Below are positions 4,595 through 31,942 of a DNA stretch of 32,000 nt, piece after piece. The DNA lies in assembly GCF_018336915.1 (NCBI RefSeq), contig NZ_CP064923.1:3390001-3422000 (forward strand), in the 5' to 3' direction. The DNA comes from Acaryochloris marina S15 (GTDB lineage: Bacteria > Cyanobacteriota > Cyanobacteriia > Thermosynechococcales > Thermosynechococcaceae). The position numbers and the translations under genes were made by a program. Numbering within the stretch: the first letter of the stretch is position 1; each line of letters opens with the position of its first letter. The notes beneath the pieces were generated by a model that was given only the letters and a program-made list of their open reading frames with translations, made no database searches and was not told the origin of the DNA.

Positions 4595-6187
4595 TTACTG
4601 GAAGCTTTCTGGGGATTCTGATGGAGGCGGTGTTGAGAAATCAGGCCGAGCAAAGGGGTCGAACGGAGATGGCTCTGGGCTGGGAGCCAGGCTGTCAGGA
4701 TAGGAGTCTATTGGCGCTTGAAGAGTAGGATCCGGGCCTAGGGAATCAGGACTAAGAGGGACGGAGTCCTGAAGGGTGGGATCTGGCCCAATATCACCCT
4801 GATCAAACTGAGGATCAACCGTTGGTTCTTCTAAAGTTGAGGGAATGGGGGACTCAAGAGGTGTTTCAATCGGAGTGGGCAAAGTTTCTAATTCCCTTCT
4901 GGTCGTCCCTGGCTTAGGTAGAAAATCTTCATTTTGAACCGGGGCAGCCTTTGCAGGCACTTGCGGGTTCGCGAACTGATTCTGGTAATGAAACCGTAGC
5001 AACAGGCCAAAGGCAATTCCCACAACACCTGAGAGCACTGAACACACGATTAATGCTCGGAAGGGAAATCTGGGAGGCGCGGAATAAGGTTGGAGACGAG
5101 TGGTTGACACAGTCTGGCTGGGCTCCTGGCTAGGGACTGTTGATTCTGAAAGTGTTGTCGGAAGATCCTCAGTCTCAGGGGCTATAGATAATTGCTCTGA
5201 AGGGTAAGGAATTGCTGGGCCTGAAGGTTCTGAGGCTGGAGGTTCTGAGGCTGGAGGAGGAGAGGTCTCTAGAAGAGAAGAGTCTATTGAGGATACAGGT
5301 TTCGCAGTTAGGGAAGGGGAAGCTGCGCCTATGTTACCCGATTCTGTTGGGAATGATACAGGGGGAGAAGGTGCCTTGGGTAGGAGTTTCATCCACTCTG
5401 AGATAGATTGAGGGCGATGCTGAGGTTGCATCGCCATTCCCCGTAGCAGGGCAACAATCGTTGCCTGGCTTAGGTCTGGGTGATGCATTTCCAAGCGAAT
5501 ATGTTGCCGCTGGGAAGCTGCTATCGGCATTTGCCCCATCACCAAGGTGTATAAGGTTGCGGCTAATCCATAGATATCGGTTGTAACGGTTTGTTGACCT
5601 TGAGCGGATTCAGGTGCTGCATAGGCATGAACCAGAGGAGGAGGCAAACTAGGGTTGCTGGGTTGCCAAACCCAATTCACAAGCATCGGATGATCAGTAT
5701 GGGGAGGGTCAACAACATTTTTCGGTTGAACATCTCCATGCCGAAGCTGCTGCTGATGCGCTTGGTTCAAGCCGTTAGCAATTTGGGTGATTTGGGCAAT
5801 CGCCTCCGCTTCTGATAGGGGCTGATTTTTTCCATTTATGGCCCAGGTCTGTTCTGGTAGCTTGTCCCTGACCAGAAAGGGGAGAACCGAATCTACAAAA
5901 ACGTCTCGGATGGGTTCTAGGGAAGGATGTTTTAAGCGCTGCCAAGCTTGAGCTTCTTGTATGAAAGCATCGCGATGTAGGAGGATTTTTTTAGGGTGTT
6001 GACGGGACGGATTAAGGGTATTGATCAGAACAGGCTGCTGACTAGGTAAATGAGTGCCCTCATAGGTTAGCTGCAAGCCCTGATGCCTGACCAGTTGCTC
6101 TAAACGATACGTTCCTTTTTGTAAAAGTGTTCCGAGGGGAAGCAAAACCATTGTTGGCAGAGGGGGGCGCATGGTAGCTAACGGCAA
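4595..6187 (-). CDS. Membrane-anchored Ser/Thr protein kinase-like protein (predicted pseudokinase) with Pro-rich C-terminal region
   Basis: 530-aa ORF. The kinase fold is recognisable from FIQEAQAWQRLKHPS, LRHGDVQPKN, AYAAPE, TDIYGLAATLYTLVMGQMP and HRPQSISEW. However, the Gly-loop is degenerate (VRHQGLQ), VAIK is replaced by VLIN, and DFG is replaced by NWV. There is one TM helix (ALIVCSVLSGVVGIAFGLLL) followed by a Pro/Ser/Glu-rich tail. Confidence 0.75.
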   Translation of the reverse strand: MPLATMRPPLPTMVLLPLGTLLQKGTYRLEQLVRHQGLQLTYEGTHLPSQQPVLINTLNPSRQHPKKILLHRDAFIQEAQAWQRLKHPSLEPIRDVFVDSVLPFLVRDKLPEQTWAINGKNQPLSEAEAIAQITQIANGLNQAHQQQLRHGDVQPKNVVDPPHTDHPMLVNWVWQPSNPSLPPPLVHAYAAPESAQGQQTVTTDIYGLAATLYTLVMGQMPIAASQRQHIRLEMHHPDLSQATIVALLRGMAMQPQHRPQSISEWMKLLPKAPSPPVSFPTESGNIGAASPSLTAKPVSSIDSSLLETSPPPASEPPASEPSGPAIPYPSEQLSIAPETEDLPTTLSESTVPSQEPSQTVSTTRLQPYSAPPRFPFRALIVCSVLSGVVGIAFGLLLRFHYQNQFANPQVPAKAAPVQNEDFLPKPGTTRRELETLPTPIETPLESPIPSTLEEPTVDPQFDQGDIGPDPTLQDSVPLSPDSLGPDPTLQAPIDSYPDSLAPSPEPSPFDPFARPDFSTPPPSESPESFQ

Positions 6188-7312: not shown

Positions 7313-7382
7313 AGAGCAACGCTAGCATGTTGGTCTGAGAATTCGGCTTACCTGTGATTGAACATTACAAAACGGTGAAGTC
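7313..7382. repeat. Left copy of the direct repeat flanking the LRR-Roc-COR gene
   Basis: agagcaaCgctagc-N11-agaattcggCttacctgtgattgaacattacaaaacggtgaaGtc matches 10991..11060. The match is 13/14 in the first block, then an 11-nt variable block, then 43/45 in the core. Weaker similarity continues on both sides. Confidence 0.85.
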
Positions 7383-7453
7383 TTTTTGCCTGAAGGCACA
7401 GGTATTTCAATGTTTCAATTGGTCATATTGAAAGTTCGCAGAATTTCCATTAC

Positions 7454-10400
7454 TTACAAGCGTTTATCCTCCCGGAGCTTGTCCAGTTGGCCTCGGAAGT
7501 GTCCCTGCAATCCTTCGATCGATTCATATTCCTTGTAAAAGTGGCTTAAATTACTAAGCTTATCTTTGAAGTCACGCAGAGAAATAAGATCATCAACATT
7601 GACATCACTGGTTGAAACCGTGGTCTTCCGGAAGTAGGTATAGATCAGCGGTTTCTTAGTCTTCTTGAAGGTTTTGTATGCAACGTCAAATTCTTCCTCT
7701 GTGTATTTACCTGTTTTAGTCTTGAACAAGCTGACGAAAATGTCGCAGTGTCGAATTTTTTGGTTATATTCATTCTGGAGTCGGGTTGTCGACATGGCAT
7801 CAAGGAAGTTTTCCCAGCGGATAACTTCTAAGTAGATGCCTTGTTTGCGTAGACGGTCATTCTGCTGGCGAAAATATAGATCGAAAGCGTCGCGATCTTC
7901 GCGAAGCTCAGCTGAGGACGCTAGGAAGATCCGAATCGTCTTTTCCTTCACAGTATCCGCCGACTTAGATTGATTTGATTCTTCAGGTGTTTCTATCTCA
8001 CTATTGTCTTGAGGTAGCTCTTGTTTTGCTCTCGCCAACCATTGTTCTAGATTCATGCCATCCAGAAGTTCTAGCACGCTGACATCATGGTAGTCAGGTG
8101 GATTGGGGCACTCAATGGATGGTTTGCCTCTACTTTTCCGTTCAATTAATTTTTTCTGCTCGAACATTGCTGGTTCTGTTAGGTTCATGCAGGTTTCACA
8201 GATGCAAGGCACCCATTTACTGACTTTGTCTTTGAGTCCTTGGAAGCTGTCGTTTAGTGCATCAAGTTCACTGGCAATAGTGCTGAGCAGCGATTTTTTT
8301 TCTGGACCACGGCTGCGGAGAATAATTTCATTACCTTTTTCGGCTGTCACCACTAGCATCTTTGTTTCACCATGCTCGAATAAGGCACCCTGCAACCAAC
8401 ATAGATTCGGCTGCTTTACAAAACGGTGCACTCGAACGATCAGTCGGCTTACCAGGCCCCGAGGTAGAAACTCGTAGCGGTAGGTCAACATCAGATCGCC
8501 ACTCCTGGCCCAATTGTCTAGCTCTGAAGGCTTTGAAGGTGACAAGTGTTGTGGAACCAGCCATGTCTCTTTGTTCATATCCGGCAGCCGATAACATAGC
8601 TCGAAACGGACCATGAGGGCACGCAACTCTATTTCCTTATCCGCGTAGCCTTTTTTGGACCACAGACGATCGCAATCATCCAGGGTAAAGCGACCTTGCT
8701 GGGATTTGACATTTTCGTCGTCAAGGATACGAAATACTGCATCTGTCATCCACTGGTTCTGTAAAAATATAGTCCGTCGGAGTTCCCGTGGTTCCTGAAA
8801 GTGTAGGAACACTCCCAGGTCATGCAGGTACTGGCTTAGCTTTAGGGCCTTATCGAGATCTGCTTCAAGATGACCTGCATAGACTGTGAAGTAGTTATCC
8901 AGTGAGATATAGGGCTGGGTCTTTGCCAATTCCTTCAATTCATCGCGAATGGCAACCCATTTAGCTGGTACATCTTCACCAATATGTGGCAATTTCTGAA
9001 TGTAGTATTCTACCGCTTGGCGCAGTTTATCCGCCGCACATGGATGTTCCAGATTGCCCCGATGGAACTCCTCTACGTTGGGAAAGCGCCCTCTGATGCC
9101 CACCTCGTCGATCTGTTTACTGCGTCCGCCTTTCTCATTTTGAAAAATTAGTAGGGGACTAGCTGCGCTAAGGGTTTCAACTACCTCCAGCCAGAACTTA
9201 AAACCTTCGTCATAGACTGATTTGTGATCACTGCGGGTGTCATCGACCAATACATACAAGGAACGCTTTGTGAGAAAGAACTGATGGGTCGCATGATAAA
9301 TCTGCTGACCGCCAAAGTCCCAGGCATTAAGTCGAAACTTGCGTCCATTAGACATTGAGAACTCATGACGGTGGATATCGATGCCACGGGTTGTTTCGTC
9401 TTCGTTAGGCAGTCCTAATTCGGGCAGAAACATACGACGCAGAATGCTAGTTTTTCCAGCCCCACCCTCGCCAACAATTAGTAGTTTGGCTTCAAACAGC
9501 CGATCTACCCCCTGCGCTTCAACCTCATGAAAGTAATTGAGTACTGCCTCCGGCCCCTGCTTTACGATTTCCGGCGAGGGATGTGTTAGCGGACAATCTT
9601 CGACATAGATACCTACTCCCCGCCATGTTGCTTGGGACCAATGGATCGGTCGTTTGGCTAAGACCCACGATTTTAAAGGTGATAGATCTACCACGTTTGT
9701 CTCAGCAATGTTCAGTGTCACGAGTGGAAGCTGTGCTAATGGAGCAACCGTCGTTATCTGTTTATTTGAATTTAGATGTAGATCGTTGAGAGCTGTTTGG
9801 TGTTGACCAATGGCAATGACAACTGCATCACCCACATTGTTGTTACTCAGATTGAGTGACGAGAGCTGTTGGAGGTTCTCTGCGATGGCCCGCGCCCCGT
9901 CATCACCCACTTTGTTGTTTCTCAGATTGAGTGACGAGAGCTGTTGAAGGTTCTCTGCGATGGCCCGCGCCCCGTCATCACCCACATTGTTGTTTCTCAG
10001 ATTGAGTGACGAGAGCTGTTGGAGGTTCTCTGCAATGGCCCGCGCCCCGTCATCACCCACTTTGTTGCCACTCAGATCAAGGGACGAGAGCTGTTGGAGG
10101 TTCTCTACGATGGCCCGCGCCCCATCATCGCCCACTTCGTTGAAACTCAGATTGAGTGACGAGAGCTGTTGGAGGTTCTCTGCAATGGCCCGCGCCCCGT
10201 CATCACCCACATTGTTGTTACTCAGATTGAGTGACGAGAGCTGTTGGAGGTTCTCTGCGATGGCCCGCGCCCCATCATCGCCCACTTCGTTGAAACTCAG
10301 ATTGAGTGACGAGAGCTGTTGGAGGTTCTCTGCAATGGCCCGCGCCCCGTCATCACCCACTTCGTTGTCACTCAGATCAAGTGACGAGAGCTGTTGGAGG

Positions 10401-10885
10401 TTCTCTGCGATGGCCCGCGCCCCATCATCGCCCACTTCGTTGAAACTCAGATTGAGTGACGAGAGCTGTTGGAGGTTCTCTGCGATGGCCCGCGCCCCGT
10501 CAGCGCCCACTTCGTTGTCACTCAGATCAAGTGACGAGAGCTGTTGGAGGTTCTCTGCGATGGCAGTGATGTCTGTATCCTGCAGGCTGAGGGACCAAAA
10601 GGTGAGAGTTTGCAACCGATTGAGTCGCAATAGTTCAAGGGGGAGACTAGATAACTGGGTGGTAAGTTGGAATACAACGCGCCCCTGAAACTCCTTTGGC
10701 CAATTGTCCATTGATGGTGAAAGGCTAACTTCTGGTCCAAAGAGGGCTAGGTCAGTCCGATGTTCATTGCTGAGCCGCATTAGTAGATCGGGCAATTCAT
10801 CTGGATTTATGCGCTGCAGCCCAGTTTCTCCAGTCATATTAGGTACTCCCAGCTTGTCCATCGGCTTTTTTTGGGTATTGCCCAC
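7454..10885 (-). CDS. ROCO-family multidomain protein: LRR - Roc GTPase - COR - C-terminal TIR-like domain
   Basis: Uninterrupted 1143-aa ORF. It has ten 25-aa LRR units (ENLQQLSSLxLSxNxVGDDGARAIA), a P-loop (GEGGAGKTS) and switch II (WDFGGQ). COR hallmarks are VPAKWVAIRDEL..PYISLDNYF, LSQYLHDLGVFLHF and FELCYRL..WLVPQHL. The C-terminal pattern IRIFLASSAELREDRDAF..CDIFVSLF..GKYTEEEF..PLIYTYF resembles TIR/DUF4062-type domains. Confidence 0.9.
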   Translation of the reverse strand: MGNTQKKPMDKLGVPNMTGETGLQRINPDELPDLLMRLSNEHRTDLALFGPEVSLSPSMDNWPKEFQGRVVFQLTTQLSSLPLELLRLNRLQTLTFWSLSLQDTDITAIAENLQQLSSLDLSDNEVGADGARAIAENLQQLSSLNLSFNEVGDDGARAIAENLQQLSSLDLSDNEVGDDGARAIAENLQQLSSLNLSFNEVGDDGARAIAENLQQLSSLNLSNNNVGDDGARAIAENLQQLSSLNLSFNEVGDDGARAIVENLQQLSSLDLSGNKVGDDGARAIAENLQQLSSLNLRNNNVGDDGARAIAENLQQLSSLNLRNNKVGDDGARAIAENLQQLSSLNLSNNNVGDAVVIAIGQHQTALNDLHLNSNKQITTVAPLAQLPLVTLNIAETNVVDLSPLKSWVLAKRPIHWSQATWRGVGIYVEDCPLTHPSPEIVKQGPEAVLNYFHEVEAQGVDRLFEAKLLIVGEGGAGKTSILRRMFLPELGLPNEDETTRGIDIHRHEFSMSNGRKFRLNAWDFGGQQIYHATHQFFLTKRSLYVLVDDTRSDHKSVYDEGFKFWLEVVETLSAASPLLIFQNEKGGRSKQIDEVGIRGRFPNVEEFHRGNLEHPCAADKLRQAVEYYIQKLPHIGEDVPAKWVAIRDELKELAKTQPYISLDNYFTVYAGHLEADLDKALKLSQYLHDLGVFLHFQEPRELRRTIFLQNQWMTDAVFRILDDENVKSQQGRFTLDDCDRLWSKKGYADKEIELRALMVRFELCYRLPDMNKETWLVPQHLSPSKPSELDNWARSGDLMLTYRYEFLPRGLVSRLIVRVHRFVKQPNLCWLQGALFEHGETKMLVVTAEKGNEIILRSRGPEKKSLLSTIASELDALNDSFQGLKDKVSKWVPCICETCMNLTEPAMFEQKKLIERKSRGKPSIECPNPPDYHDVSVLELLDGMNLEQWLARAKQELPQDNSEIETPEESNQSKSADTVKEKTIRIFLASSAELREDRDAFDLYFRQQNDRLRKQGIYLEVIRWENFLDAMSTTRLQNEYNQKIRHCDIFVSLFKTKTGKYTEEEFDVAYKTFKKTKKPLIYTYFRKTTVSTSDVNVDDLISLRDFKDKLSNLSHFYKEYESIEGLQGHFRGQLDKLREDKRL
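7457..7939 (-). other. TIR-like (STIR-superfamily, DUF4062-like pattern) domain plus C-terminal helical tail, aa 983-1143 of the ROCO protein
   Basis: Alternating strand and helix segments: IRIFLASS / YLEVIRWE / CDIFVSLF / PLIYTYF. An acidic EEE (aa 1063-1065, nt 7691-7699) follows the third strand. The assignment rests on remembered family patterns, not on a search. Confidence 0.6.
8051..8992 (-). other. COR (C-terminal of Roc) domain, aa ~632-945
   Basis: PAKWVAIRDELKELAKTQPYISLDNYF, YLHDLGVFLHFQ, IFLQNQWMTDAVFRILD and FELCYRLPDMNKETWLVPQHL. It ends in a Cys motif, CICETC..(26 aa)..C. Confidence 0.8.
8993..9490 (-). other. Roc (Ras of complex proteins) GTPase domain, aa ~466-631
   Basis: G1 is GEGGAGKTS (nt 9446-9472), switch I is TTRGIDI, and G3 is DFGGQ. 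The G4 NKxD motif is not canonical (FQNEKGG / SKQID). Confidence 0.85.
9686..10654 (-). other. Leucine-rich repeat region (RI-like 25-aa units followed by degenerate units), aa ~78-400
   Basis: The LxxLxLxxNxVG periodicity is visible directly in the translation. Confidence 0.9.
9831..10580. repeat. Ten in-frame 75-bp tandem repeats (coding, LRR units)
   Basis: Period of exactly 75 nt. Unit 10131-10205 is identical 75/75 to unit 10281-10355. Blocks 10281-10430 and 10431-10580 form a near-identical 150-bp super-unit. Confidence 0.95.
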
Positions 10886-10990
10886 CCTCTATTTCTCGAT
10901 GTGTTTTATCCATTACCATCAATATTTCTTGACCTTCTCAATACAATATCTCAGCCGAATCAGTGACATTTACGCATTTATCTCTATGCC

Positions 10991-11060
10991 AGAGCAATGC
11001 TAGCCCTATGACACCAGAATTCGGGTTACCTGTGATTGAACATTACAAAACGGTGAAATC
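10991..11060. repeat. Right copy of the direct repeat flanking the LRR-Roc-COR gene
   Basis: Matches 7313..7382 in the same orientation. It lies 64 bp upstream of the pip ATG and about 105 bp upstream of the ROCO gene start. Confidence 0.85.
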
Positions 11061-11123
11061 AGTGGTCCTGAGTCGGGAGACCTTTTATCTTGAAGGACAA
11101 GAGATAGCTGTTGGACCTCCAAA

Positions 11124-28023: not shown

Positions 28024-29265
28024 GGCACTTCGAAAAAAAGAATTGAATGTTTCCTAGGACATCACAACAGCTCAATCAAACTTGGTCCAGCCCAATGAAT
28101 TTGAAGAAGTCTGCATTTAGGGGCAAATCAGCGCCCCATCTCGCTTGATTGGGACTGTTTAGGCATACTGAGTCTGCAGTTCCTTTTTGCGCCAAAACAC
28201 ATAGCGTCTCAAGTTATAGGCCAAATCCTTCAGACCGAGTTGAGCACGGACTCGCTTCATCCCAATACAGCGGACCTGCTTGCCTCCCAAATTCATTACC
28301 CATGCCCCAAAGACATGTTCAATCTTAGCGCGCACCTTCGATTTACCCCGATTCGTTTCTTTTTGCTCTTCGGTTAATGGATGATTGCGATACCCTCGCT
28401 CATGAATTTGGCTGACATAGCCAATGGCTTCGAGTCCTGCTTCTAACGCTTCGCTGCGATAGGCACTGTCAGCCCAAATTTCATCGGCGTCATTCTCTCC
28501 ATCCAAGATGTCGCAAAAAGGCTGGGAGTCATGGACGGATGCGTCGGTCACCTGATGCTGGCGGATAAACCCATAGGCAGCATCAATATTGATATGGTTT
28601 TTGTAGCCAAAGTGGCTTTTGCCATTCTTTTTGGTCCATCGGGCGTCGGTATCTTTGTGAGACTGTTTATGAGGCTTATCTTTCCACTCAGGGGGGATGT
28701 CGCCTTGTTTGATCTGTTTGTTTTCTTCGCGAGTATTGCGTTGAATAGGAACTGGCACTAGGGTCGCATCAATGATTTGACCGCCTTTAGCCGTATACCC
28801 ACACCCTGCTAAAAACTGGTTAAAGGTTGCAAAAAGCTCCTCTATCAAATCGGCGTCACTCAGGTGCTGGCGAAATAGCCACACGGTCGTTGAATCGGGT
28901 ACTTCATCCTCTGGAGACAAACCTAGAAATCGGCGAAATGAGAGTCTGTCATGGGTTTGATATTCCAACTCTTCATCACTCAGGTTATACAGTTGCTGAA
29001 GGATTAACAGCTTCAATAGCAACAGTCTATCGATGGGTTTACGGCCTGCTTTGCTTTTGCGCTCTGGTTGGGGAAGTTGCTCTAAGCAACGGCGGAAGAT
29101 CGCCCAGTCTATGAGGCAATTGATCTCGCTTAAGCTGTCTTTGCGTGCTTCTAGCTGCTCACGGCGATGTTTGATTCTGCCAAAGCCTTTGGATTGCATG
29201 GCGAATTATCCTGTGAGGGCTGGGTCATATTCTCAATATTAAGGCTTTCTATTTTTCGAAGTGCC
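28024..29265 (-). mobile_element. IS5-family insertion sequence, 1242 bp, apparently intact
   Basis: The terminal inverted repeats are GGCACTTCGAAAAAAAGAA and GGCACTTCGAAAAATAGAA (18/19). It has a single transposase ORF and is flanked by CTCCAG direct repeats. Confidence 0.85.
28159..29199 (-). CDS. IS5-family DDE transposase
   Basis: 346 aa. The N-terminus is DUF772-like (LLLKLLILQQLYNLSDEELEYQTHDRLSFRRFLGL). The DDE region includes IIDATLV, WADSAYRS and RAKIEHVFG..LAYNLRR. Confidence 0.9.
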   Translation of the reverse strand: MQSKGFGRIKHRREQLEARKDSLSEINCLIDWAIFRRCLEQLPQPERKSKAGRKPIDRLLLLKLLILQQLYNLSDEELEYQTHDRLSFRRFLGLSPEDEVPDSTTVWLFRQHLSDADLIEELFATFNQFLAGCGYTAKGGQIIDATLVPVPIQRNTREENKQIKQGDIPPEWKDKPHKQSHKDTDARWTKKNGKSHFGYKNHINIDAAYGFIRQHQVTDASVHDSQPFCDILDGENDADEIWADSAYRSEALEAGLEAIGYVSQIHERGYRNHPLTEEQKETNRGKSKVRAKIEHVFGAWVMNLGGKQVRCIGMKRVRAQLGLKDLAYNLRRYVFWRKKELQTQYA

Positions 29266-30901: not shown

Positions 30902-31942
30902 ATGGCAAAAACCACTCAAAAAAAGAACTGGGTACTGTTCCTTTTGATGTCTACTGCAGCCACTTTATATGGACTGAGAGCCCATGAGCAGCTAGGCCGT
31001 ACCGTTGCTTATCAAGCTGCACCATCTCAGTCTATATCGACCATTCACAAGACCCTGCAAACGCTAAAAAATAATAGTGTATGGATCTATGCGATCGCAC
31101 TCAGTCCCGATGGTGAAACCTTGGCGAGTGGGCGCTATGACGGCAAGATTGAGCTATGGAATTTACGCACTGGCACCTTACGTCAAACCCTGAAAGCTCA
31201 TGAAGATGCCGTCTCATCTTTAACAATCAGTGCTGATGGCCAAACATTAATCAGCGGTAGCTGGGATAACCGCATTAATTTATGGGACTTACACACTGGG
31301 AACCATCTGCATACTCTAGAAGATGCAGCAGATGATGTTACTGCCATCGCCCTCAGTCCAGACGGCAAATCCTTGGCTGCCAGTGCTGCAGATAAAACTA
31401 TCAGACTCTGGGATTTGAAGTCGAGCAGTCAACTGCAGGTCCAGAAAGCCCCCACTGTCGTTCTGTCTTTAGCCTTTAGTCCTGATGGGCAGGTTCTAGC
31501 TGGGGGGAGCCGGGATGGTGTCGTACGGTTCTGGCAGCGGGATAGTCTTTCTCCTAGAGTTGCCCTAGAGGGACATCAGGGTGCGGTACAGTCGGTCTCC
31601 TTTAGTCCCGATGGCACCTTATTGGCCAGTGGCAGTGAAGACCAGAGCATGAAAGTTTGGCATCTCTCCGAAGGGAAACTCCTGCATACCCTCCAGGGCC
31701 ATAATGCACCTGTCTTATCGGTTGCCTTTAGTCCAGATGGCCGCAACTTAGCCAGTGGGAGTTATGACCGCACCATTAAAATTTGGAATCCTGTATCCGG
31801 TCGGCCCCTCAAAAATTTGGTCGGACATACCAAGTCAGTGCAATCGATCCAATTTAGTCCGGATAGTCAAACCTTAGTGAGTTCCGGCAGTGATGCCACC
31901 GTAAGAGTTTGGCCGATTGTGGCAGCGACGGCTCTCCAGTAA
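30902..31942 (+). CDS. Exported or membrane-anchored seven-bladed WD40 repeat protein
   Basis: 346 aa. A basic N-terminus and hydrophobic segment (KKNWVLFLLMSTAATLYGL) are followed by seven units of pattern ..V.S.AFSPDG..LASGS.D.T.K.W. Confidence 0.9.
   Translation: MAKTTQKKNWVLFLLMSTAATLYGLRAHEQLGRTVAYQAAPSQSISTIHKTLQTLKNNSVWIYAIALSPDGETLASGRYDGKIELWNLRTGTLRQTLKAHEDAVSSLTISADGQTLISGSWDNRINLWDLHTGNHLHTLEDAADDVTAIALSPDGKSLAASAADKTIRLWDLKSSSQLQVQKAPTVVLSLAFSPDGQVLAGGSRDGVVRFWQRDSLSPRVALEGHQGAVQSVSFSPDGTLLASGSEDQSMKVWHLSEGKLLHTLQGHNAPVLSVAFSPDGRNLASGSYDRTIKIWNPVSGRPLKNLVGHTKSVQSIQFSPDSQTLVSSGSDATVRVWPIVAATALQ

What the first reader, a model, noticed from the sequence alone, without database searches (positions are those of the whole stretch)
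9831..10580. Ten near-identical 75-bp coding tandem repeats whose differences fall almost entirely on the predicted LRR binding face
Seen in the sequence: the ten 25-aa units ENLQQLSSL[D/N]L[S/R][D/F/N/G]N[E/N/K]VGDDGARAIA differ essentially only at four positions inside LxxLxLxxNx. Minor exceptions are in rep1 (GADG for GDDG), rep6 (terminal A to V) and the tail of rep10. The rest of each unit is conserved down to the nucleotide, apart from a few linked synonymous variants: GGT GAT GAC versus GGC GAT GAT, and ATC versus ATT. Unit 10131-10205 equals unit 10281-10355 at 75/75, and 10281-10430 is nearly identical to 10431-10580, so 150-bp double units were duplicated recently.

Established knowledge: in LRR solenoids the x positions of LxxLxLxx line the concave beta-sheet that contacts ligands. 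Variation concentrated there is the signature of immune LRR receptors such as plant NLRs and lamprey VLRs.

Inference: perfect in-frame repeats of 75-150 bp are substrates for unequal recombination or gene conversion. The sensor could therefore change repeat number and order between lineages, or even within a population.
Basis: partly seen in the sequence, partly recalled or inferred. Interest (0 to 1): 0.7.

Follow-up and report, generated by a model that had tools for sequence, protein, structure and literature searches.

The report
Hypervariable LRR array in bacterial Roco-TIR sensor
The ten near-identical 75-bp repeats are real and encode the ligand-binding leucine-rich-repeat arc of a strain-specific Acaryochloris protein (LRR + Roc-COR GTPase + TIR-like domain) that fits an already predicted class of bacterial immune-type sensors, so it is a clear example, not a new kind of system.

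Summary
Window 9806-10555 on the minus strand holds ten in-frame 75-bp units (TRF 9.9 copies, no indels).

- **Where the units differ:** amino-acid differences fall on four codons, the x5, x7, x8 and x10 positions of LxxLxLxxNx. The scaffold is 95% identical at the DNA level.
- **The gene:** it encodes an 1127/1143-aa protein with LRR, Roc, COR-A/B and a C-terminal TIR-like (DUF4062/NPHP3-like) domain. Its closest solved relative is Chlorobium tepidum Roco.
- **The family:** the same four positions are the most variable within proteins across 53 homologues. Units are homogenised within each gene, which indicates concerted evolution. Unit number ranges from 5 to 20.
- **Allelic variation:** in one homologue, alleles that are otherwise identical differ only by whole units (13, 12 or 9). 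Short-read collapse is not excluded.
- **Selection:** dN at the four codons is 2-6 times the scaffold dS. This is not significant for this gene alone, and it is about 1 against those codons' own synonymous sites.
- **Distribution:** the gene is a 3.7-kb insertion bounded by a 43-bp direct repeat. It is absent from three strains with 98-99% identical flanks.
- **Prior description:** Kaur et al. 2021 predicted LRR/AP-GTPase/COR/effector proteins as counter-invader systems. Highly conserved repeats with hypervariable sites are known from NLR-like proteins.

Verdict: a new member of a known kind. Its function is inferred, not shown.

The parts
7454..10837 (-). Gene for the LRR-Roc-COR-TIR-like protein. 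It is 1127 aa from the ATG at 10837. The open frame extends to a GTG at 10885, giving the 1143-aa numbering used in this report.
   Evidence: ORF list and translation. 100% identical to NCBI 'COR domain-containing protein [Acaryochloris marina]', P0001. Homologues start at the position of M17.
10556..10837 (-). N-terminal cap with irregular, degenerate LRR-like beta-alpha turns (ORF aa 17-110).
   Evidence: AF2 secondary structure has strands 22-26, 45-49, 70-74 and 93-97 with pLDDT 79-95. No Pfam family matches.
9806..10555 (-). Ten 75-bp / 25-aa highly conserved LRR units (ORF aa 111-360). Hypervariable codons are 10, 12, 13 and 15 of each unit. Units 2 and 4 are identical, and unit 6 differs from them by 1 nt.
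   Evidence: Pfam LRR_6 E 3.5e-46. Model pLDDT 95-97 with strand, loop and helix in every unit.
9641..9805 (-). Two to three diverged C-terminal LRRs and the LRR-Roc linker start (ORF aa 361-415).
   Evidence: Pfam LRR_4 340-384. AF2 strands 368-370 and 390-392.
9134..9487 (-). Roc GTPase domain (ORF aa 467-584). It has the P-loop GEGGAGKTS and switch II DFGGQ. The G4 NKxD motif is replaced by N583-E-K-G.
   Evidence: Pfam Roc E 2.8e-20. Alignment to CtRoco and MbRoco2, which have NKID at this place.
8057..8968 (-). COR-A (aa 640-781) and COR-B (aa 798-943).
   Evidence: Pfam E 1.4e-35 and 8.1e-28. Foldseek to 6hlu E 2.9e-37 and to 3dpu.
7469..7942 (-). C-terminal TIR-like (DUF4062/NPHP3-like) domain (aa 982-1139), after a disordered linker (aa 944-978). 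An invariant TEEEF motif (E1064/E1065) sits at the start of helix C.
   Evidence: Sub-threshold Pfam hits to NPHP3, TIR_2 and DUF4062. PADLOC PDC-S60 N-terminus E 7.8e-13. AF2 five-strand beta/alpha fold, pLDDT 85.5. Weak Foldseek hits to plant TIR domains and to nucleoside deoxyribosyltransferase.
7338..7393 (.). Left copy of the direct repeat bounding the gene insertion. The core is 43 nt: AGAATTCGGsTTACCTGTGATTGAACATTACAAAACGGTGAA.
   Evidence: the repeat finder family D3. Alignment break-points against the empty-site strains L001-L003.
11016..11071 (.). Right copy of the same direct repeat. The empty-site strains have a single copy.

Best explanation
**What it is.** The repeats encode the sensor arc of a single-polypeptide, NLR-like conflict ("counter-invader") protein of the Roco / AP-GTPase class. 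It has an N-terminal LRR solenoid, a Roc-COR GTPase switch and a C-terminal TIR-like effector.

**Shown here**
- Ten of about 15 LRR turns are nearly identical at the DNA level.
- Units within one gene resemble each other far more than units of orthologues. This means intragenic unequal crossing-over or gene conversion keeps homogenising the scaffold.
- Amino-acid diversity persists at four surface positions per turn: x5 and x7 on the concave sheet by LRR geometry, and x8 and x10 in the adjoining loop.
- Unit number differs among homologues, and apparently among alleles of one homologue.
- The gene is a strain-specific 3.7-kb insertion. The family is scattered over more than 10 phyla.
- The effector position is swappable.

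**Inferred**
- The 10 x 4 grid of variable residues is the ligand-contact surface, probably for a phage or other invader protein.
- Binding would release LRR autoinhibition of Roc-COR, as proposed for CtRoco and LRRK2. That would change nucleotide state and oligomerisation and bring the TIR-like domains together.
- The TIR-like domains would then hydrolyse NAD+, as shown for DUF4062 in Swarozyc, and cause abortive infection.
- Exact repeats of 44-104 nt make the array a substrate for RecA-type recombination, so new unit orders and numbers arise faster than by point mutation.
For: - **Array and hypervariable columns:**. Concentration of nonsynonymous variation in the four codons: p = 3e-4.
- **Structure:** LRR pLDDT 95-97, with strands at unit columns 8-10.
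- **Family-wide pattern:** within-protein entropy is 1.6-2.0 bits at columns 10, 12, 13 and 15, against 0.2 or less at the Leu columns. There are 5-20 units per protein, and 16 arrays are highly conserved internally.
- **Concerted evolution:** scaffold nucleotide identity is 0.89-0.95 within a gene and 0.68-0.78 between genes. Third-position identity is 0.80-0.88 within and 0.36-0.54 between.
- **Selection signal:** dN at the hypervariable codons divided by scaffold dS is 2.1-6.0 in the six young homologue arrays, and dN(HV)/dS over all codons is 2.6 in the window. The scaffold's own dN/dS is 0.06-0.64.
- **Unit-number alleles:** L085/86/87 have 13 units. L088 has 12 and differs in the gene only by one 72-bp indel, with 0 mismatches. 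L089 has 9. All sit at the same locus.
- **Recombination substrate:** exact repeats up to 104 nt.
- **Roco identity:** Pfam, CtRoco phmmer E 4e-81 and Foldseek E 2.9e-37.
- **Effector:** 15, 14 and 12 of 21 family members hit DUF4062, NPHP3 and TIR_2, and PADLOC PDC-S60 also matches. Some orthologues carry TIR_2 instead (P0016 and P0021). The same module is fused to NB-ARC plus conserved repeats in L077 and to pentapeptide repeats in L065.
- **Accessory status:** the gene is absent from L001-L003, whose flanks are 98.4-99.4% identical, and from every Acaryochloris species representative.
- **Literature:** the class was predicted as counter-invader systems (PMC8195603). DUF4062 is a TIR-like NADase in phage defence (bioRxiv 10.64898/2026.05.01.722283).
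Against: - No experiment links any bacterial Roco to defence in the papers I could search.
- The neighbours are housekeeping genes (uvrB, glcF-like, pip, acpP, fabF, tkt), not a defence island.
- PADLOC recognises only the effector domain.
- All effector-domain matches are below Pfam's curated thresholds, and the Foldseek hits are weak: TM about 0.55, mixed with Ras-like folds.
- For this gene alone, nonsynonymous change at the hypervariable codons does not significantly exceed synonymous change (p = 0.23).
- In several homologues the hypervariable codons' own pS is as high as their pN. Unconstrained sites that escape homogenisation would fit those data equally well.
- The unit-number alleles come from short-read metagenome assemblies, which can collapse repeats.
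- The Roc G4 motif is atypical.
- The known Roco cycle (GDP dimer to GTP monomer) does not obviously produce the oligomerisation that TIR domains need.
Confidence: 0.6

Rival explanations
1. Ordinary signalling or scaffold Roco GTPase. The array is simply a recent tandem amplification. The four positions vary because the x positions of an LRR are structurally unconstrained. There is no immune role and no adaptive diversification.
For: - The x positions vary in all LRR proteins (established knowledge).
- In the window, nonsynonymous against synonymous density is not significant (p = 0.23).
- pS within the hypervariable codons is about equal to pN in L006, L008 and L014.
- The neighbourhood is housekeeping.
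- The function of CtRoco-type proteins is unknown (PMC6337361).
Against: - Under neutrality, whole-unit homogenisation should erase differences at the hypervariable codons as fast as at synonymous scaffold sites. Yet hypervariable pN is 2-6 times scaffold pS in the seven young arrays (the window and six homologues).
- Synonymous sites at L11 and N14, interleaved between the variable codons, are invariant in the window.
- Effector swapping, a TIR-like module shared with an NB-ARC protein, strain-level presence/absence and cross-phylum patchiness are not expected of a housekeeping regulator.
Confidence: 0.22
2. Host-interaction factor. The protein is an LRR/TIR protein used by symbiotic or epibiotic bacteria to engage eukaryotic host proteins, like GALA, internalin or Tcp-type TIR effectors. 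It is not an anti-phage sensor.
For: - The LRR type is GALA-like (PDB 9j7j, 4xa9).
- Several closest homologues come from animal symbionts such as Thiosymbion and Thiodiazotropha.
Against: - The family is equally present in free-living Nitrospira, Nitrosomonas, picocyanobacteria and Acidobacteria.
- The translated N-terminus shows no hydrophobic signal-peptide-like stretch by inspection. No signal-peptide predictor was run.
- No secretion system genes lie beside the gene.
- A 1127-aa GTPase-switch architecture is typical of intracellular sensors.
Confidence: 0.06
3. Assembly artefact. The number or order of the ten units was created or distorted by mis-assembly of a repeat.
For: - Repeats of 75 bp with exact stretches up to 104 nt are hard for short reads.
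- A short-read contig from SRR12447961 breaks at 11028, though that is inside the 43-bp flanking repeat and not in the array.
Against: - The record is a 5.88-Mb contig.
- The array is perfectly in frame with no indels.
- Homologues in independent assemblies have the same organisation.
- The array is only 750 bp, which any long read spans.
Confidence: 0.05
4. Targeted hypermutation: variation at the four codons is written by a diversity-generating retroelement.
For: Variation is confined to a few codons inside an otherwise identical sequence.
Against: - There is no template copy of the unit anywhere else in the window.
- No reverse transcriptase is among the window's ORFs.
- The substitutions are not adenine-specific (G/A, T/A, G/T/A).
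- Linked synonymous variants show that whole units are duplicated together with their variable codons.
Confidence: 0.01

Closest known systems
Prokaryotic AP-GTPase (Roc)-COR counter-invader proteins predicted by Kaur, Iyer, Burroughs & Aravind 2021 (eLife, PMC8195603)
   Same: The order is the same: rapidly evolving N-terminal LRRs, then the Roc/AP-GTPase, COR, and a variable C-terminal effector slot that includes TIR. Effector swapping among relatives is seen here too.
   Different: That paper does not, in the passages I read, describe near-identical DNA-level units with four hypervariable codons, allelic unit-number differences, or a DUF4062/NPHP3-like version of the effector. The class as a whole remains a computational prediction.
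Chlorobium tepidum Roco (CtRoco; PDB 6hlu, 8r4b, 3dpu)
   Same: LRR-Roc-COR fold and order. phmmer E 4e-81 and Foldseek E 2.9e-37.
   Different: In the Roc alignment CtRoco has a canonical NKID G4 motif where the window protein has NEKG. None of the CtRoco matches extends past query residue ~890, so no counterpart of the TIR-like domain was aligned. CtRoco's biological role is unknown. The internal conservation of its LRRs was not examined here.
Highly internally conserved (HIC) repeat domains of NLR-type receptors: fungal HNWD/HET-E WD40, ANK and TPR; also reported in Actinobacteria and Cyanobacteria (Dyrka 2014/2020; Ament-Velasquez & Saupe 2026, PMC13449251)
   Same: - Near-identical tandem units.
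- A few hypervariable positions on the binding face.
- Concerted evolution by unequal crossing-over.
- Gain, loss and shuffling of units between alleles.
- Association with an NTPase switch and a death or TIR effector.
   Different: The switch here is a Roc-COR GTPase, not a STAND ATPase (NACHT/NB-ARC). The repeat type is LRR, and the sensor is N-terminal while the effector is C-terminal.
Brown-alga LRR-ROCO candidate immune receptors (Zambounis 2012; Teng 2024, PMC11378527)
   Same: LRR-ROC-COR with modular LRR units of about 24 aa that are shuffled and under diversifying selection.
   Different: There, each LRR is a separate 72-bp exon and diversity comes from exon shuffling and alternative splicing. 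Here there is one uninterrupted bacterial ORF, recombination acts between tandem units, and a TIR-like effector is present.
Swarozyc / DUF4062 TIR-like NADases (bioRxiv 10.64898/2026.05.01.722283)
   Same: Distant sequence similarity of the C-terminal domain to DUF4062/NPHP3. Both have a beta/alpha TIR-like fold and a conserved acidic residue at the start of helix C.
   Different: The sensor there is a helix-turn-helix/winged-helix auxiliary domain that binds the phage portal, with no LRR or GTPase. The matches here are sub-threshold and NADase activity is untested.
Lamprey VLRs and plant NLR LRR domains
   Same: Variability is concentrated on the xxLxLxx concave-face positions of an LRR solenoid.
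   Different: - VLR diversity is somatic, generated by cassette copy-choice; here diversity is in the germline.
- Plant NLR LRRs are not near-identical at the DNA level.
- No homology exists beyond the LRR fold.

Membership tests
Roco (Roc-COR) protein family | Ras-like Roc GTPase domain with a P-loop and a DxxG switch II | tested here: met
   Pfam Roc E 2.8e-20. GEGGAGKTS and DFGGQ are present and invariant in 49 homologues.
Roco (Roc-COR) protein family | COR-A and COR-B domains immediately C-terminal of Roc | tested here: met
   Pfam COR-A E 1.4e-35 and COR-B E 8.1e-28. Foldseek to 6hlu E 2.9e-37, and to 3dpu with target TM 0.80.
Roco (Roc-COR) protein family | Canonical G4 guanine-specificity motif N/TKxD | tested here: not met
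   N583-E-K-G aligns with the NKID of CtRoco and MbRoco2. N583 is invariant and E584/K585 are nearly invariant in the clade. This is a clade-level deviation, and nucleotide specificity is untested.
Prokaryotic AP-GTPase counter-invader proteins (Kaur et al. 2021) | Rapidly evolving N-terminal LRRs fused to AP-GTPase + COR | tested here: met
   Unit number ranges from 5 to 20, and scaffolds are homogenised separately in each lineage.
Prokaryotic AP-GTPase counter-invader proteins (Kaur et al. 2021) | Variable C-terminal effector slot (TIR, caspase, etc.) | tested here: met
   The domain here is TIR-like. TIR_2 (PF13676) sits in the same slot in P0016, P0021, P0022, P0032 and P0034.
Prokaryotic AP-GTPase counter-invader proteins (Kaur et al. 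2021) | Protection against invading elements | not testable with these tools
   No experimental report found. The neighbourhood is housekeeping.
HIC-repeat NLR-type receptors | Tandem units near-identical at the nucleotide level | tested here: met
   Scaffold identity 0.953 within the array. Units 2 and 4 are identical at 75/75.
HIC-repeat NLR-type receptors | Hypervariable positions on the ligand-binding face | tested here: met
   Unit columns 10, 12, 13 and 15 are x5, x7, x8 and x10. The strand is at columns 8-10 in a model with pLDDT 95-97. No coordinates were available to compute exposure.
HIC-repeat NLR-type receptors | Positive or diversifying selection at those positions | tested here: inconclusive
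   dN(HV)/dS(scaffold) is 2.1-6.0 in the six young homologue arrays, and dN(HV)/dS over all codons is 2.6 in the window. But p = 0.23 in this gene, and the ratio is about 1 against the hypervariable codons' own synonymous sites.
HIC-repeat NLR-type receptors | Repeat-number polymorphism between alleles | tested here: inconclusive
   No close allele of this gene was found. In a homologue, alleles with 13, 12 and 9 units sit at one locus, but these are short-read assemblies.
HIC-repeat NLR-type receptors | Central STAND ATPase (NACHT / NB-ARC) | tested here: not met
   The switch is Roc-COR. The protein is therefore NLR-like in logic and not an NLR.
TIR / DUF4062 NADase superfamily | Sequence match above curated thresholds | tested here: not met
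   NPHP3 25 bits against a cutoff of 33, TIR_2 20.8 against 28, DUF4062 17.4 against 24.7. Consistent sub-threshold hits occur in 12-15 of 21 members.
TIR / DUF4062 NADase superfamily | Five-stranded parallel beta/alpha (flavodoxin-like) TIR fold | tested here: inconclusive
   The AF2 model (pLDDT 85.5) shows a beta-alpha x5 topology. Foldseek gives RRS1, L6 and RPS4 TIR domains at E 2e-4 to 9e-4 with TM about 0.55, but also NDT and Ras-like folds.
TIR / DUF4062 NADase superfamily | Catalytic Glu, and NAD+ hydrolysis | not testable with these tools
   Invariant E1064/E1065 (TEEEF) lie at the start of helix C in the model. Activity is untested.
Diversity-generating retroelement target | Nearby reverse transcriptase and a template repeat, with adenine-specific changes | tested here: not met
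   and the codon table.

The most novel reading that the evidence does not exclude
The array is an actively recombining specificity generator. In natural populations, intragenic unequal exchange among the near-identical units continually produces alleles with new numbers and orders of pre-diversified LRR turns. That would give a bacterial Roco-TIR-like protein a germline repertoire mechanism analogous to fungal HNWD receptors. It would also imply that immune sensing is the ancestral job of the Roco/LRRK lineage. The gene would additionally travel as a single-gene cassette that inserts at a 43-bp att-like site.
Probability: 0.25. Interest if true: 0.7.

Novelty: new member of a known kind. Interest (0 to 1): 0.45.

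Why it matters
- **Open question on bacterial Roco proteins.** They are used as structural stand-ins for human LRRK2, yet they have no known biological function. This clade is widespread and horizontally mobile. It has a recombining, surface-hypervariable LRR arc and a TIR-like effector, so it offers a concrete and testable hypothesis: invader sensing leading to NAD+ depletion.
- **Reach of the HIC mechanism.** It extends the diversification mechanism of highly internally conserved repeats, established in fungal NLRs, to a GTPase-switched bacterial receptor.
- **Practical caution.** The 75-bp array is also a place where short-read assemblies, and therefore gene catalogues, may be wrong.

Tried and rejected
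1. **Exact-protein look-ups.** The look-ups of the Roco protein and of the adjacent CCG-domain protein found nothing on record. Only the pip look-up worked, and that is what revealed the empty-site strains.
2. **LRR-only protein search.** It returned only 5 weak hits and did not even recover the protein itself, so it says nothing about paralogues that might share the units.
3. **Metagenome scan.** A degenerate scan for the unit scaffold DNA gave 0 hits.
4. **Genome scan.** It returned 77 loci and none from Acaryochloris, so allele comparison for this gene was impossible.
5. **PDB sequence search.** A profile of the C-terminal domain gave nothing meaningful.
6. **DGR-type targeted mutagenesis.** Rejected: no template copy, no RT, and no adenine bias.
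7. **Foreign base composition.** GC across the insert (0.42-0.57) is not distinctive.
8. **Promoter and terminator scan.** The scan around the gene gave no more than chance.
9. **Model coordinates.** They are not exposed by the tools, so solvent exposure and concavity of the four positions could not be computed.
10. **Antisense ORF 9960-10688 (+).** It is a by-product of the repeat periodicity and not a gene.

Full report
**1. The observation**

Tandem Repeats Finder reports one strong array at 9826-10564: period 75, 9.9 copies, 91% matches, no indels, score 1198. A 26-nt scaffold probe hits ten times at exact 75-nt spacing, all on the minus strand, with none expected in shuffles. The array lies inside a long minus-strand ORF, 7454-10885. 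NCBI's identical protein model starts at the internal ATG (10837) and is 1127 aa.

In codon phase the ten units are 9806-10555. Units 2 and 4 are identical at 75/75, and unit 6 differs from them by one base. The units fall into three types that carry linked synonymous variants:
- F-type: units 2, 4, 6.
- D/G-type: units 1, 3, 7.
- N-type: units 5, 8, 9, 10.

Whole units were therefore duplicated together with their variable codons.

One detail is overstated. 10281-10430 vs 10431-10580 differ at 15 of 150 positions. The close double-unit pair is 10131-10280 vs 10281-10430, with 5 differences. Exact intra-array repeats reach 104 nt.

Among units 1-9 there are 14 variable nucleotide sites. Six are nonsynonymous and lie in codons 10, 12, 13 and 15. 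Six are synonymous and lie elsewhere. Two are nonsynonymous singletons. The concentration of nonsynonymous change in the four codons is significant: 6 per 10.5 sites against 2 per 46.3 (p = 3e-4). The scaffold is under purifying selection: nonsynonymous against synonymous odds ratio 0.09, p = 0.005.

**2. What the gene encodes**

Pfam gives the following:
- LRR_6 x9 (E 3.5e-46)
- Roc, aa 467-584 (E 2.8e-20)
- COR-A, aa 640-781 (E 1.4e-35)
- COR-B, aa 798-943 (E 8.1e-28)

The best solved relative is the Chlorobium tepidum Roco protein, with phmmer E 4e-81 for 8r4b/6hlu and Foldseek E 2.9e-37 for the full-length model. LRRK2 follows. The LRR type resembles 24-25-residue GALA / RI-like repeats.

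The full-length AlphaFold model has mean pLDDT 83.9, and 95-97 across the array. DSSP places a short strand at unit columns 8-10 (x3-L4-x5 of LxxLxLxxN) and a helix from column 18 into the next unit. By the established geometry of LRR solenoids, x5 and x7 (columns 10 and 12) point from the parallel sheet into the concave face. x8 and x10 (columns 13 and 15) flank the Asn ladder in the ascending loop at the rim of that face. Three of the four positions belong to the canonical xxLxLxx set, and the fourth is adjacent to it.

**3. The C-terminal domain**

Residues 982-1139 follow a disordered linker. They fold in a separate model (pLDDT 85.5) as a five-stranded beta/alpha domain. Sequence matches are all sub-threshold but consistent:
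- NPHP3 domain E 2e-5, TIR_2 E 6e-4, DUF4062 E 5e-3 for this protein.
- 14, 12 and 15 of 21 family members hit these three families, with best E-values of 6e-7, 1.6e-4 and 6.9e-5.
- PADLOC matches the N-terminus of the candidate defence protein PDC-S60 (E 7.8e-13).
- Foldseek gives plant NLR TIR domains (RRS1, L6, RPS4; E 2e-4 to 9e-4, TM about 0.55) and nucleoside deoxyribosyltransferase, mixed with generic Ras-like folds.

An invariant TEEEF motif sits at the start of helix C. A 2026 preprint shows that DUF4062 domains are TIR-like NADases. They act in the Swarozyc phage-defence system and depend on an active-site Glu.

The slot is modular. Some orthologues carry a canonical TIR_2 domain there. 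The same TIR-like module also occurs on other proteins:
- At the N-terminus of an NB-ARC protein with its own near-identical helical repeats (L077).
- After pentapeptide repeats (L065).
- On a membrane protein (L066).

**4. Family-wide behaviour of the repeats**

In 53 homologues with at least 5 units, mean within-protein entropy peaks at columns 13, 12, 15 and 10 (2.0-1.6 bits). It is 0.2 bits or less at the Leu columns. Unit number runs from 5 to 20, and 16 proteins have mean inter-unit identity of at least 0.7.

For four genes with DNA, scaffold identity excluding the four codons is 0.89-0.95 within a gene and 0.68-0.78 between genes. Third-position identity is 0.80-0.88 within and 0.36-0.54 between. 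No unit is closer to a unit of another gene than to its own neighbours. That is concerted evolution.

Nei-Gojobori estimates give dN at the four codons as 2.1-6.0 times the scaffold dS in the six homologue arrays with scaffold pS below 0.3. In the window array, dN(HV) over dS across all codons is 2.6. Scaffold dN/dS is 0.06-0.64.

Several caveats apply:
- Pairs within an array are not independent.
- In this gene alone the excess over synonymous change is not significant (p = 0.23).
- The hypervariable codons' own synonymous divergence is about as high as their nonsynonymous divergence in several homologues.

The robust statement is this: the scaffold is homogenised and constrained, while diversity at these four surface positions is retained against homogenisation. 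Formal positive selection is not proven.

**5. Do alleles differ in unit number?**

No close allele of this gene exists in the collections. The next protein is 72% identical. The exact-protein look-up, the metagenome DNA scan and the genome scan found none.

A homologue in freshwater picocyanobacteria offers a test. Its flanking genes are PMSR, PIN, the Roco gene and a FitA-like RHH gene.
- Three independent contigs carry a 13-unit allele.
- One contig carries a 12-unit allele. Its 3.3-kb gene differs from the 13-unit allele by one 72-bp indel and nothing else.
- One contig carries a 9-unit allele.

**6. Genomic status**

Three Logan assemblies have a Pip protein identical to the window's and flanks 98.4-99.4% identical. 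They lack the gene: the glcF-like CCG gene is followed after 164 bp by pip.

The window carries about 3.68 kb extra, containing only this gene. It is bounded by a direct repeat, 7338-7393 and 11016-11071, with a 43-nt core that has one mismatch. The empty sites have a single copy of this repeat. I could not decide whether this reflects insertion at an att-like site or deletion between repeats.

No Acaryochloris species-representative genome has the gene. Relatives at 45-70% identity occur in Cyanobacteria, Gammaproteobacteria, Nitrosomonas, Nitrospirales, Planctomycetes, Chlorobiales, Desulfuromonas, Chloroflexota, Acidobacteria and Verrucomicrobia. The immediate neighbours are housekeeping genes, not a defence island.

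**7. Most likely mechanism**

Shown:
- The domain order.
- The recombining array with surface-hypervariable positions.
- Modular effectors.
- Accessory status.

Inferred:
- The LRR arc binds an invader-derived ligand through the 10 x 4 variable grid.
- This relieves LRR-mediated restraint on Roc-COR, as proposed for CtRoco and LRRK2, and changes nucleotide state or oligomerisation.
- It then activates the TIR-like domain to consume NAD+ or make a signal, aborting infection.
- Exact repeats of 44-104 nt allow homologous recombination to change unit number and order.

I put 0.6 on this reading. The main rival, at 0.22, is a non-immune Roco whose x positions simply drift.

**8. Relation to what is known**

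- Kaur et al. 2021 (PMC8195603) predicted [quoted passage not shown]. These have rapidly evolving N-terminal LRRs, COR and at least 24 alternative C-terminal effectors, including TIR.
- Highly internally conserved repeats with hypervariable sites and unit shuffling are established for fungal NLRs. They have been surveyed in bacterial NLR-like proteins, including Cyanobacteria.
- Brown-alga LRR-ROCO genes shuffle LRR exons.
- I found no paper that tests a bacterial Roco in defence.

This is therefore a clear new member of a predicted class. It adds new detail: DNA-level concerted evolution in an LRR-Roco, a DUF4062/NPHP3-like effector, and a cassette-like insertion. It is not a new kind of system.

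Noticed in passing
window 7338-7393 and 11016-11071 (insert about 7380-11015); L001-L003 9893-9934: The whole Roco gene is a 3.68-kb presence/absence polymorphism. It is bounded by a 43-56-nt direct repeat that is single-copy in three strains with 98-99% identical flanks. No integrase or transposase lies inside the insert. Insertion at an att-like site and deletion between repeats were not distinguished.
   Followed up: partly
window 9128-9139 (ORF aa 583-586): The Roc G4 motif NKxD (NKID in CtRoco and MbRoco2) is replaced by NEKG. N583 is invariant and E584/K585 are nearly invariant in the clade. The guanine-specifying Asp is missing, so nucleotide specificity may differ.
   Followed up: partly
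L077 7998-11363; L065 992-2164; L066 6522-8480: The same C-terminal TIR-like module (49-66% identical) is fused elsewhere. It occurs with an NB-ARC ATPase plus near-identical helical repeats of about 30 aa (ELWPEALEITREIKDESSRS..), with pentapeptide repeats, and with a membrane protein. The MAG that carries L077 also carries a Roco orthologue (L011).
   Followed up: partly
L085-L089 (gene at 3001-6339 in L085): A picocyanobacterial homologue shows alleles with 13, 12 and 9 LRR units of 24 aa at one locus flanked by PIN and RHH toxin-antitoxin-type genes. The 12-unit allele differs from the 13-unit allele by a single 72-bp indel and no substitutions. These may be real alleles or short-read collapse.
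   Followed up: yes
window 9960-10688 (+): A 242-aa antisense ORF (MARAPSSPT... repeated) runs through the array. It is produced by the repeat periodicity and has no independent support.
   Followed up: no
window 4595-6187 (-), tandem repeat 5221-5257: The neighbouring Ser/Thr kinase gene has a Pro/Ser/Glu-rich tail containing a 15-bp tandem repeat (2.5 copies). The called product length differs between related strains (525, 525 and 519 aa in L001-L003).
   Followed up: no
window 28159-29199 (-) and 30902-31942 (+): There is a DDE transposase (DDE_Tnp_1 / DUF772) and, downstream, a 346-aa protein with seven WD40 repeats. By eye the WD40 repeats are not near-identical to one another, and no link to the Roco gene was seen.
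   Followed up: no
protein hit list: Several of the closest homologues (65-73% identity) come from animal-associated sulfur-oxidising symbionts (Candidatus Thiosymbion, Thiodiazotropha) and not from cyanobacteria. This points to cross-phylum transfer, possibly within marine host-associated communities.
   Followed up: no
(method): A protein search with only the repetitive LRR region returned 191 candidates and failed to recover the source protein itself. Word-index searches are unreliable for such repeats, so the absence of paralogues sharing the units is not established.
   Followed up: no
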